From Lingula anatina (taxonomy: Eukaryota; Animalia; Brachiopoda), in assembly GCA_051362555.1 (NCBI GenBank), contig CM120648.1:11838587-11902586 (forward strand): a DNA stretch of 64,000 bases, in the 5' to 3' direction. A model generated the notes under the pieces. That model was not told the origin of the DNA, did not search any database, and saw only the letters and a list, made by a program, of their open reading frames with translations. Below are positions 9,167 through 12,100 of the stretch, one piece after another; position 1 is the stretch's first letter; each line of letters opens with the position of its first letter. The position numbers and the translations under genes are program-made.

Positions 9167-12100
9167 TTAGAAGCCTTGGCCACTCCCCTGGTCAGGCGGC
9201 AGCAGGTCAAGCGTCCATTGCTTCAGTGCTGGAAAGAAGATCACAGAAGTGCAGCACACAGCAGCAAATTATAAGTGATATGTAATTAAACAATATGAAC
9301 GAGAACGTTCATACGAGAAAAAAACCGGTAAATGGGTTTCAAGAACCCTTAGTTTCAGAGGTCACTAAGATCTCACCTCTCTACTATCAACATGACAATC
9401 ATTTAGAGTAACACCCTGGGTTTCAGATGCCACTGGGAACTCAGACCCTCTCTAATATCAACATGGCTGTCGTTTTCATCATACCGGCCACGGCAGAGGC
9501 ATATGTTTGCGAGTTAAGTTAACTCTATGAAACCCAGGGTGGTTCCATGGAACATTCAAACAAAAAGCTTTCCCTAAACTGGCTTTTAATCTTGCAGGTT
9601 AAAGTATGGTTCGAGCCATGCACATGCCCAAATTCACGTGACTGATTTTAAAGATTTCATCGGGATGAGAACAGTCTTACACTGAAGGTTTAAAAAAAGC
9701 AACTGTCACCCTGAGTTTCCCAATGCCAACGGGGTCTTGTCCAATCGATGTATTTCCAACGTAATCTGTGAGAAAAGGAGAGCTTCCGATGGAATCTGAA
9801 ATTCAGGAAGCTTTCTTGCCACTGCCGAATGGAAGCCGGCGTTGTAGTCGATCTCCACTCAATTCTTGACGGCGTCCGTCCTTACTTACCCGCCACTGCC
9901 GACTGGAAGCCAGCGTTGTAGTCGATCCTCACTGCATTCTTGACGGCGTCCGTCCTCACGTCAGCGTAATCATCGTTTTTCCCAGGGCCCCCCACCAGGG
10001 CCCCAGTCAACACCTGTGGGTTGGGGCTGGGGGCGTCTTTGTTGGATTTGCCACACGGGCCGGGCCGCAAGGGGCAGGACCTAGTCGAAATGTGAATGAA
10101 ATTTAAGTGTATGAATGAGTGAGTAAATTCAGTTAATCATTGAATGCATTAAAGGATGGATCGTCAGAAAGACAGTTTAACAAATGAAATAAGGTTCGAA
10201 GAAATACGTCAATGTCCAAATAGAATGAAATATATTTTTAACATGTCGTATATGCCTCCAATATTTTTCTTATCAACGCGTGAGATGTTGCCTACTATCC
10301 TATAAGCAGCATACTGTAGGTCTTGTGCCTGGTTTGCAGAAGCCTTCCCCTTGCCACACCCGACAACATAACTCCTTCGCTGTTTTTTTATTTTATTTTA
10401 TTTTACTATTTATTTTGGAAATAAGGCGCACTCAACATAGAACATTTTGTACTATTCATCTAGGTCTTAAATCTTTTCCTTCCTCTTTGTAAAATAGGCC
10501 TACATCTACAGAATCTTTTGTTTTGGATATGGTGGAAGGCACACCCAACCAGCTCTGTGCCCCTTTACTTACGCTGCACGATGATGTGGGTGTGTGGGTG
10601 GGTTGTTGCCAAAACCCACCACGTAGCTGCGGCCCGCGTCTCCCAACATGTAATGAATCTGATATTTGGCCCATGTCCGGTACTTGTCGCTTTGGATGCC
10701 GGCATCAGCGGCTCTCAGCGCCAGGAACGCACTGTTGGCTTAAAGAGGGACATGACTAGCTGTTATTGTTATATTGGTATTGTCAGATATATAGTCGCTG
10801 AGGGCGGACATTGTGAAATATATGTTGTAAAAAATCAAACAACAGTCTTGGGTTACATCATCAGCAATGCAATATATCTTGACTTGATGACGGCGCTTCA
10901 TTCTCATTAAATTATGGTATCCGACTAAGTTAATGAAGCCACACCGCATGTTCTCTGAGGGAAATTTTTCATTAATAGCTTAACTTTTTGATGGACAATT
11001 CGTACTAATCTGGAAATGACCAGTCGACTGTTGAAAGGTTAGGTGTCACTTGCTTTATTTCAGGGCGAATGGTTCGAATTATGACGTCACAGTACTACAC
11101 CACAGGGATACGGCATTCCACTTGTGTTCTTTTGATTTTGATAATATAAGCCTAGGTCCCAACCAAACGCACGGGCTGCTACGTGTGGTTTACGGTCAAA
11201 AAAATGCGGAAAACGTGGGAGTCCGTGCATAAGGAGCACGTCCATCGTGCGATCTAGCTACGTCCTAGCCAGACGAAAGGAACCTAAAAAACCGTGCGTC
11301 CAAAACGTATTGGGACCTAGGCTATACAGACCAAAAGACTTCCCGAGATTACCTGCGTAGCGCAGCGGCCCCTTCTCTCCCCTCCAAGCCAGTCCCTTCG
11401 GCGTGTATGACACGCTATCACCGGGAAGCCAGCTACTCATGTAGGTCTCTACGTCTTGCTTGTAGGTTGTTTCATTGGTAAGGATGTGCAGGAGAAGCTA
11501 TGGAAACCAATTGATAAACCGTAAATAGATTGCATAGCTTTTGGTGCGTACTTTTTCAGAATAAAAATTTATCCACGACTGACTGAATTTCATATAATCA
11601 TCCCAGGACCACGCCCCTCACTGCCACTCTTACCTGACAGGCTACGGTATTATCATCCCAAGACCACGCCCATGACATCTTATTCGCCGCCCATTTCTTG
11701 GCGTCTGACAGGTATTTCTGTTCGTTTGTTGCTCTGTACAACCAGGCGGCGGCCACACACAGATCATCGGCATAGCCACTTGAACTGAAGATGTTAAAAA
11801 CATGACGTCACTGATTAATTCTAATGACGTCACACTTGATAAAAATCAGTTTGTTTTAGTAACACTGGCGATGGGTTATGCTGATTACATAATGTCGCAT
11901 TGCATTATGAATGATGACAGAATTAACATTATGTATTTTAATTACCGTAAATTAAAACGTCAATGATGGGGAAAATCATAATCTGAAATGATTACAAGAA
12001 AAGTTTGTGGAAATTAATAAATACTGTCTTTCGTGTTTCAGTCCAGGGTAATCGTAAATAATAATAATATTTATAGGTGTTCATATTGCTAAGAATATAT

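What the first reader, a model, noticed from the sequence alone, without database searches (positions are those of the whole stretch)
9890..10080. GH9-B is an intact, secreted, three-CBM cellulase homolog with the catalytic acid Glu replaced by Ala: candidate pseudoenzyme partner of the active neighbour
Seen: GH9-A reads [19 protein letters not shown], while GH9-B reads [19 protein letters not shown] (GCA at 9933-9935). The nearby Tyr is also Ala (9945-9947), and the Trp of QWGSNRYA is Lys (EKGPLRYA, exon 11497-11353). The base-side aspartates are kept (WYDGGDH), and all 13 exons are open with valid splice sites. Established: GH9 enzymes are inverting hydrolases whose general acid is the Glu of this C-terminal motif, and mutating it abolishes most activity. 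Inference: several cleft residues changed together in a gene that is not decaying, which suggests a selected non-hydrolytic role (cellulose or algal-wall tether, disruption or synergy factor, glucan receptor) or altered chemistry, encoded beside an active CBM-less cellulase as a two-part system.
Basis: partly seen in the sequence, partly recalled or inferred. Interest (0 to 1): 0.85.

Follow-up and report, generated by a model that had tools for sequence, protein, structure and literature searches.

The report
Brachiopod cellulase lacking its catalytic acid
The brachiopod Lingula carries an intact cellulase-family gene whose key cutting residue and three sugar-gripping residues are replaced while natural selection still appears to keep the protein, so it likely binds rather than cuts food fibres, a switch seen in a few other animal lineages too.

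Summary
Observation confirmed. The window is Lingula anatina. GH9-B is an open 13-exon, 755-aa gene (signal-like N-terminus, three CBM2-like modules, GH9 domain). GCA at 9935-9933 puts Ala at the general acid (termite NtEG Glu412). Both NCBI versions of the protein and contigs from two other DNA runs carry the same Ala, so it is no assembly error. Four of 13 published active-site positions are changed in B (E412A, Y408A, W301K, F205L) against 0 of 13 in neighbour A and in a third paralog. Allelic differences in exon 12 give pN/pS of about 0.2 (6 N, 11 S; p about 0.002), which argues against a decaying pseudogene. Best reading: a constrained, likely non-hydrolytic glucan-binding GH9. The 'two-part system' is unsupported: A and B are Lingula-lineage duplicates, and a third, intact CBM-bearing paralog lies on another scaffold. 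It is not unique: 10 of 125 homologous domains also lack the Glu (at least four origins), and 9 of these 10 also lose Tyr408. B alone keeps both base aspartates. Expression and function are untested.

The parts
16669..16842 (-). GH9-B exon 1: ATG, hydrophobic signal-like peptide, first half of CBM2-like unit 1
   Evidence: missing from the NCBI models, which start in exon 3
16122..16409 (-). GH9-B exon 2 (288 nt, phase 0-0): second half of CBM unit 1 plus first half of unit 2
15393..15680 (-). GH9-B exon 3 (288 nt, phase 0-0): old duplicate of exon 2 (dS about 1.7, dN about 0.31); second half of unit 2 plus first half of unit 3
14670..14850 (-). GH9-B exon 4: second half of CBM unit 3 and short Thr/Gly linker
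14126..14290 (-). GH9-B exon 5: start of GH9 domain; base Asp365 (NtEG D54) at 14129 kept; following Ala is Gly (split codon)
13036..13220 (-). GH9-B exon 6: second base Asp368 (NtEG D57) at 13215 kept
12688..12847 (-). GH9-B exon 7: His435 and Trp438 (NtEG H124, W127) kept
12186..12297 (-). GH9-B exon 8: Leu516 at 12193 replaces cleft Phe205; Tyr517 kept
11634..11784 (-). GH9-B exon 9: Trp560 (NtEG W253) kept
11353..11497 (-). GH9-B exon 10: Lys610 at 11374-11372 replaces cleft Trp301 (Trp in 115 of 115 Glu-bearing homologs); Arg614 and Tyr615 kept
10573..10738 (-). GH9-B exon 11: His668 and Arg670 (NtEG H359, R361) kept
9890..10080 (-). GH9-B exon 12: Ala717 (Tyr408), Ala721 (catalytic acid Glu412), Arg723 (Ala414); Tyr726 (Y417) kept
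   Evidence: allelic variation
9933..9935 (-). GCA (Ala) codon at the general-acid position
9810..9883 (-). Intronic 74-bp tandem duplicate of the exon-12 end; 11 of 74 differences, in-frame TGA at the acid position, splice donor lost; not part of the mRNA model
   Evidence: in run X8 the extra copy matches the window's exon copy over 73 bases
9167..9228 (-). GH9-B exon 13: C-terminal tail and stop; AATAAA at 8820
   Evidence: same tail in both NCBI proteins
2325..7229 (-). GH9-A: 10-exon, 464-aa CBM-less GH9 paralog with all 13 active-site positions intact, 1.9 kb downstream of B, same intron positions and phases in the GH9 domain
   Evidence: identical to XP_013393923.1 over the aligned part

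Best explanation
GH9-B is an intact Lingula GH9 duplicate that has lost its general acid and three cleft aromatics yet is still under purifying selection in the exon tested, and it likely works as a secreted, non-hydrolytic polysaccharide-binding protein, with its three CBM2-like modules predicted to grip cellulose-like food glucans. Shown: open gene, Ala at Glu412 in every version seen, clustered cleft changes, constraint on exon 12, origin within a three-member Lingula clade. From established GH9 chemistry: without the Glu there is no proton donor for the leaving group, so cellulose hydrolysis would be near zero. Inferred: a CBM2-GH9 ancestor duplicated; A lost its CBM, B triplicated it by repeating a 288-nt phase-0 exon; with two active paralogs present, B gave up catalysis and was kept as a high-avidity binder (tethering, loosening or sorting algal and plant particles in gut or mucus), its barrel acting as a scaffold or as a site for another, perhaps anionic, ligand (Lys610 and Arg723 are new). 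No special pairing with A is needed.
For: Ala aligns to NtEG E412; that Glu is named as catalytic in PMC6032398, PMC3795549 and PMC4221708 (passages), the second citing an inactive Glu-to-Gln mutant of CbhA. Same Ala in two NCBI proteins and in contigs of runs X7 and X8. Rare residues at 4 of 13 active-site vs 14 of 211 other conserved positions, p=0.013; A 0 of 13, third paralog 0 of 13. No new acid near the lost one in sequence; net charge as in A. Exon-12 allelic differences 6 N vs 11 S, pN/pS 0.19-0.23, p 0.0008-0.003; X8 alone 2 N vs 7 S where 18-20 N would be neutral. End branch 0.28 vs 0.31 for A. All three CBM units keep the five aromatic columns conserved across 116 other animal CBM units. 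Model superposes on animal GH9 structures at rmsd 1.0-1.2 A (weak, as the alignment drives the fold).
Against: B keeps 9 of 13 active-site positions, including both base aspartates, whereas 0 of the 10 other Glu-less domains keep the second Asp; a cleft with no job should have eroded further, which fits a recent loss or another chemistry. The constraint test rests on one exon (63 codons), two runs and 17 listed changes; 8 of X8's 19 differences were not listed and X8 covers the codon region twice, so its in-frame copy is not directly read. B shows more amino-acid variation between the two NCBI versions than A (7 of 591 vs 1 of 464, p=0.07). No binding or activity data exist; cellulose binding by these CBMs is inferred from family membership.
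Confidence: 0.58

Rival explanations
1. B is still an enzyme with altered chemistry: the retained Asp pair activates water while the substrate needs no protein acid (good leaving group, or a substrate carboxyl or cofactor donates the proton), and the new Lys610 and Arg723 would hold an anionic glycan or glycoside.
For: Both base Asp, H124, W127, W253, Y306, H359, R361 and Y417 equivalents are kept, unlike in the other 10 Glu-less domains. Changes are focused on the cleft and add basic residues. Arg or Lys stands at the acid position itself in 3 of 10, 3 of 10 and 2 of 3 non-Glu homologs. GH1 myrosinases do without the acid Glu by using ascorbate (recalled, no call).
Against: Three stacking aromatics are lost together with the acid; no replacement acid is visible in sequence; side-chain geometry could not be inspected (one search gives no coordinates); three CBM2 units point to insoluble glucan; no GH9 precedent appeared in the listings.
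Confidence: 0.18
2. B is a redundant duplicate in early decay: catalysis was lost under relaxed selection and the frame has not yet been hit.
For: Two intact paralogs cover the activity. More amino-acid variation than A between NCBI versions (7 of 591 vs 1 of 464, p=0.07). NCBI models lack exons 1-2. An inactive, weakly expressed endogenous GH9 is reported in a beetle (PMC10981690, passages).
Against: Ala is shared by versions that differ at about 15% of synonymous sites in exon 12, and among them pN/pS is about 0.2. No stop, frameshift or broken splice site in 13 exons or in two NCBI versions over 591 aa. W301K and Y408A each need two base changes. Changes cluster in the cleft. DNA contigs of X1 show the B region is more variable than the A region in introns too, which can explain the extra amino-acid variation.
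Confidence: 0.14
3. B is the dedicated partner of neighbour A in a two-part system: B supplies the cellulose anchor that CBM-less A lacks, by binding A or by opening the substrate for it.
For: Complementary anatomy (A: active, no CBM; B: three CBMs, no acid); 1.9 kb apart on one strand; the pair is linked on both NCBI scaffolds by locus numbering.
Against: A, B and the third paralog are one lineage-specific clade, so linkage is expected from tandem duplication. The third paralog already joins a CBM2 to an intact domain. CBM-less GH9s work alone in many animals (PMC11083476, passages).
Confidence: 0.1

Closest known systems
Animal GH9 endo-beta-1,4-glucanases with solved structures (termite NtEG 1KS8, earthworm EF-EG2 3WC3, nereid 4ZG8)
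   Same: 50-53% identity, predicted (alpha/alpha)6 barrel at rmsd 1.0-1.2 A, both base aspartates, 9 of 13 active-site positions
   Different: General acid Glu is Ala; Y408, W301, F205 replaced; new Arg at A414; three N-terminal CBM2-like units
Multi-CBM2 GH9s of molluscs, echinoderms and hemichordates
   Same: Signal-CBM2(n)-GH9 layout; three units also in P0063 (Ptychodera), P0081 (Acanthaster), P0105 (Diadema), P0130 (Lytechinus), P0118 (Holothuria); two units in 30 of 133 proteins
   Different: Those five keep the Glu; B's units have almost no linkers and arose by repetition of one 288-nt exon
Other Glu-less animal GH9 domains (Pinctada KAK3104432.1, Saccoglossus XP_002734592.1, tandem-GH9 proteins of Ciona, Clavelina, Styela)
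   Same: Loss of the acid Glu, joined in 9 of 10 by loss of the Tyr408 aromatic; Gly after the first Asp
   Different: Separate origins (4 changes on a 45-row tree); all 10 also lack the second base Asp and most lack further cleft residues, while 8 of 10 keep an aromatic at W301. I found no functional study of them
Animal pseudo-glycosidases: GH6 domain of tunicate CesA lacking its catalytic Asp (PMC10334666, passages); inactive GH9 of Oryctes rhinoceros (PMC10981690, passages); GH18 chi-lectins and Limnoria GH9s lacking catalytic residues (both recalled; King et al. 2010 was not held)
   Same: A glycosidase fold kept without demonstrable or predicted hydrolysis
   Different: Different family or lineage; the passages seen for the beetle GH9 give no residue-level cause; none combines three CBM2 units with an intact base pair

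Membership tests
GH9 family (sequence and fold) | Pfam Glyco_hydro_9 above cut-off over the full profile | tested here: met
   463 bits vs cut-off 27.7, profile 1-443 of 444 (NCBI version P0015)
GH9 family (sequence and fold) | (alpha/alpha)6 barrel | tested here: met
   AlphaFold model pLDDT 89; Foldseek rmsd 1.0-1.2 A to 3WC3, 4ZG8, 1KS8; a prediction
Active GH9 endoglucanase (EC 3.2.1.4) | General-acid Glu of the Asn-Glu-Val motif | tested here: not met
   Ala721, GCA 9935-9933
Active GH9 endoglucanase (EC 3.2.1.4) | Two base aspartates of the Asp-Ala-Gly-Asp motif | tested here: met
   Asp365 and Asp368 kept; the Ala is Gly
Active GH9 endoglucanase (EC 3.2.1.4) | Aromatic and polar cleft residues (10 binding positions in PMC6032398 Fig. 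4 legend) | tested here: not met
   7 of 10 kept; W301K, Y408A, F205L
Active GH9 endoglucanase (EC 3.2.1.4) | Hydrolysis of beta-1,4-glucan | not testable with these tools
   needs recombinant protein
CBM2 | Pfam CBM_2 match and conserved aromatic residues in each unit | tested here: inconclusive
   Unit 3 passes Pfam (25.4 vs 24 bits); halves of units 1-2 score below cut-off; all three match an own HMM and keep the five conserved aromatic columns; no useful PDB sequence hit
CBM2 | Binding to insoluble cellulose | not testable with these tools
   needs a pull-down assay
Pseudoenzyme (functional, non-catalytic homolog) | Catalytic residue missing in an intact reading frame | tested here: met
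Pseudoenzyme (functional, non-catalytic homolog) | Purifying selection after loss of the residue | tested here: met
   exon 12 only: pN/pS about 0.2, p about 0.002 among Ala-bearing versions
Pseudoenzyme (functional, non-catalytic homolog) | Expressed as spliced mRNA and protein | tested here: inconclusive
   RNA runs of unknown tissue covered neither B nor its intact neighbour beyond traces
Pseudogene | Stops, frameshifts, broken splice sites or neutral evolution | tested here: not met
   none in 13 exons; neutrality rejected in exon 12
Two-component enzyme/partner locus | Co-expression, binding or synergy of A and B | not tested
   no informative RNA; no complex job was sent, as adjacency alone is no reason

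The most novel reading that the evidence does not exclude
Animals have repeatedly (at least four times) converted GH9 cellulases into a Glu412/Tyr408-less class with its own job, and Lingula GH9-B is a form that keeps the water-activating aspartate pair and rebuilds the cleft with Lys and Arg: an acid-independent enzyme or lectin for anionic algal glycans, anchored by three CBMs, that assists the active paralogs.
Probability: 0.2. Interest if true: 0.75.

Novelty: new variant of a known kind. Interest (0 to 1): 0.5.

Why it matters
Databases label this protein 'cellulase' or 'uncharacterized', and family counts treat GH9 genes as enzymes; 7-8% of animal-type GH9 domains in two searches lack the acid Glu, so such counts overstate cellulolytic capacity. 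If B is a selected non-hydrolytic binder, it is an animal-encoded accessory protein for fibre handling, for which few examples are characterised. Lingula offers a clean natural experiment: three close paralogs (65-70% identical), one without CBM, one with one CBM, one with three CBMs and no acid. The repeated joint loss of Glu412 and Tyr408 gives a testable signature for a wider class.

Tried and rejected
Assembly or sequencing error: rejected. Alternative splicing onto the intronic duplicate to regain a Glu: rejected; the copy has TGA at that codon, no donor, and 74 bases would shift the frame. Whole-genome search: no genome held, so the Lingula GH9 count of three is a lower bound from protein searches. 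Orthologs in other brachiopods: none among the listed hits (13 of 13; best 120 of 1333; best 150 of 953; best 120 of 582); outside Lingula the best full-domain identity was about 60%, so the age of the change across species is unknown. Expression: no RNA holder listed. Three RNA runs laid on 1500-17500 (6, 6 and 25 in 100 of each run read) gave depth of at most 0.13 in bins holding only B exons, at most 0.77 in such bins of A, no spliced joints, and otherwise repeats; two more runs gave 0 reads on exon 12 with no control. Tissues are unknown and the intact neighbour is equally absent, so this is no test. A-versus-B dN/dS (dN 0.28, dS about 2.2) is near saturation and cannot date the loss; not used as evidence. 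Count of changes at strongly conserved columns alone did not separate B from A (4 vs 4 of 74; 8 vs 6 of 115). Structure model gave no coordinates, so a compensating acid was checked in sequence only. Earlier findings: three look-ups returned nothing. Literature: 'Lingula'+'GH9' found one paper, which uses Lingula only as a comparison genome; searches listed no study of a Glu-less animal GH9 (listings and abstract starts seen; most subscription journals are not held, no supplements were opened). Passages of PMC6277391, PMC7571853, PMC10986139, PMC5111886, PMC10541295, PMC11805347 had nothing on lost residues; a term search of PMC10211241 returned no passage.

Full report
Identity and gene models. 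Exon 12 found one 98% match, a Lingula anatina protein; its cluster holds two NCBI versions, XP_013393921.1 and XP_013406116.1. The window gene B has 13 exons from 16842 to 9167 on the minus strand, 12 GT-AG introns and an open 755-aa frame. It differs from the two NCBI versions at 7 and 4 residues; both start at an internal Met in exon 3 and miss the signal-like peptide and the first one and a half CBM units. Gene A (7229-2325, 10 exons, 464 aa) matches XP_013393923.1. A third Lingula paralog, LOC106179839 (one CBM2 plus GH9), is on another scaffold.

The substitution is real. Ala721 (GCA, 9935-9933) aligns without gaps to Glu412 of termite NtEG. That Glu, with Asp54 and Asp57, is given as catalytic in the Fig. 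4 legend of PMC6032398 (passages); PMC3795549 (passages) names the earthworm equivalents and cites an inactive Glu-to-Gln mutant of CbhA; PMC4221708 (passages) calls the Glu the catalytic acid. Both NCBI versions have Ala. In DNA run X7 one contig covers 9800-9977 with 0 differences and joins two allelic contigs upstream; in X8 a 73-base piece over the codon has 0 differences. Caveat: X8 holds this 74-bp unit twice and 8 of the 19 differences in its longer piece were not listed, so its in-frame copy is not read directly. X1 showed no row at the codon, but that table was cut, so I do not count it.

The cleft is changed as a set. Of the 13 active-site positions listed in PMC6032398, B changes four: E412A, Y408A, W301K, F205L; A and the third paralog change none. 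The W301 and Y408 mapping was checked against earthworm W320 and Y427 in the alignment; F205 was placed by its neighbour Tyr. Residues rare among 115 Glu-bearing homologs stand at 4 of 13 active-site and 14 of 211 other conserved positions in B (p=0.013), 0 of 13 and 10 of 211 in A, 0 of 13 and 6 of 211 in the third paralog. Arg723 replaces an Ala/Thr/Ser position two residues after the acid; no Glu-bearing homolog of the 115 has Arg there. No new Asp or Glu appears near the lost acid in sequence.

The gene is not simply decaying. One search lists 17 distinct exonic changes in X7 and X8 within exon 12: 11 silent and 6 replacing, pN/pS 0.19-0.23 depending on the transition weight, binomial p 0.0008-0.003 against neutrality. 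X8 alone has 7 silent and 2 replacing changes where 18-20 would be neutral. Because every version seen carries Ala, the simplest reading is that this constraint acted after the Glu was lost (inference). Limits: one exon, two runs, unlisted changes in X8. B's end branch (0.28) is no longer than A's (0.31) (45 of 130 domains chosen for spread, LG+G4). Against: 7 of 591 residues differ between the NCBI versions of B and 1 of 464 of A (p=0.07), though X1 contigs suggest the B region is more variable overall. The AlphaFold model (pLDDT 89) matches animal GH9 structures at rmsd 1.0-1.2 A, which only shows that nothing excludes the fold. All three CBM units keep the five aromatic columns conserved in 116 other animal units.

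Origin. A, B and the third paralog form one clade (100/100); their branching order is open (92/41). Exons 2 and 3 of B are 288-nt phase-0 repeats that each hold the second half of one CBM and the first half of the next, with dS about 1.7 between them, so the triplication is old. Adjacency of A and B needs no functional pairing. Three-CBM GH9s also occur in five echinoderm and hemichordate proteins among the 133 held.

How unusual. Among 125 non-Lingula domains from the homolog search, 10 lack the Glu: one pearl oyster, one acorn worm and eight domains of four tandem-GH9 proteins, three named as tunicates. In an independent library 10 of 146 segments lack it (3 Asp, 7 non-acidic), and 3 of the 76 aligned segments in a third set. 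The tree needs four changes. The Tyr408 aromatic is lost in 9 of 10 Glu-less versus 3 of 115 Glu-bearing domains, and in 5 of 7 versus 3 of 136 in the second set; eight of the ten are one clade, so the p-values overstate independence, but the oyster, acorn worm, tunicate and Lingula cases are separate. B differs from all ten in keeping the second base Asp. Some unnamed short hits may be pseudogene fragments or mispredictions; I did not check them.

Mechanism. GH9 enzymes invert: the Asp pair activates water and the Glu protonates the leaving group (established knowledge; the mutant kinetics of Thermobifida Cel9A are recalled, not read). B should therefore cut cellulose poorly or not at all. 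Since three stacking aromatics are also gone, the cleft is likely a weaker cellulose site than in a simple Glu mutant, and binding would come mainly from the three CBMs. I commit to a secreted non-hydrolytic binder acting on food glucans (0.58). Rivals: altered, acid-independent chemistry on an anionic or activated substrate (0.18), early decay (0.14), dedicated partner of A (0.10).

Literature. One held paper has both 'Lingula' and 'GH9' and uses Lingula only as a comparison genome. Precedents for idle cellulase folds in animals: the GH6 domain of tunicate CesA (PMC10334666, passages) and an inactive beetle GH9 (PMC10981690, passages). I recall that Limnoria GH9s lacking catalytic residues were reported by King et al. 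2010, but the paper was not held. No study of a Glu-less animal GH9 appeared in ten searches of the held library; subscription journals and supplements were not seen.

Verdict. The pseudoenzyme reading is supported by sequence and polymorphism; the two-part system is not. It is a new variant of a known kind, with expression and function untested. Interest 0.5.

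Noticed in passing
window 9810-9957, 6631-6832, 3523-3681: Short tandem duplications sit at exon 3' ends in both GH9 genes and copy the exon end with or near its splice donor into the intron (74-bp, 99-bp and 42-bp units). 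One NCBI version of A has a 13-aa insertion at another exon end, which may be a similar case.
   Followed up: partly
window 19110-19655, minus strand: Iodothyronine deiodinase gene in one open stretch with an in-frame TGA at the selenocysteine position; SECIS not searched.
   Followed up: partly
window 21925-22962 and 29161-30201, minus strand: Two intronless sulfotransferase-like genes, 996 of 1038 aligned bases identical, in a 1.3-kb duplicate at 93%; both frames open.
   Followed up: partly
window 9949-10064, runs X7 and X8: Very high allelic diversity in exon 12: the two X7 contigs differ from the window at 5 and 9 of 116 bases, X8 at 19 of 246; deep polymorphism or cryptic lineages.
   Followed up: partly
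proteins P0024, P0026, P0028, P0029: Tunicate-type proteins of 900-1000 aa with two tandem GH9 domains, both lacking the acid Glu and second Asp, kept across Ciona, Clavelina and Styela: a conserved pseudo-cellulase in the animals that make cellulose; worth its own study.
   Followed up: partly
proteins P0193, P0244, P0264: Unnamed GH9-like subfamily with Asp at the acid position and no base motif.
   Followed up: no
window 11765 (B) and the same site in A and LOC106179839: All three Lingula GH9s have Asp where 98% of homologs have a Glu that binds calcium in the earthworm enzyme.
   Followed up: no
window 52281-53267 and 56353-57600, minus strand: Long open exons of another gene, with ankyrin-like and Gln/Ser-rich stretches by eye; not identified.
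   Followed up: no
window 6250-6350, 7880-8020, 11170-11310, 13940-14110: High-copy repeats that attract most RNA reads and contigs in this region.
   Followed up: no
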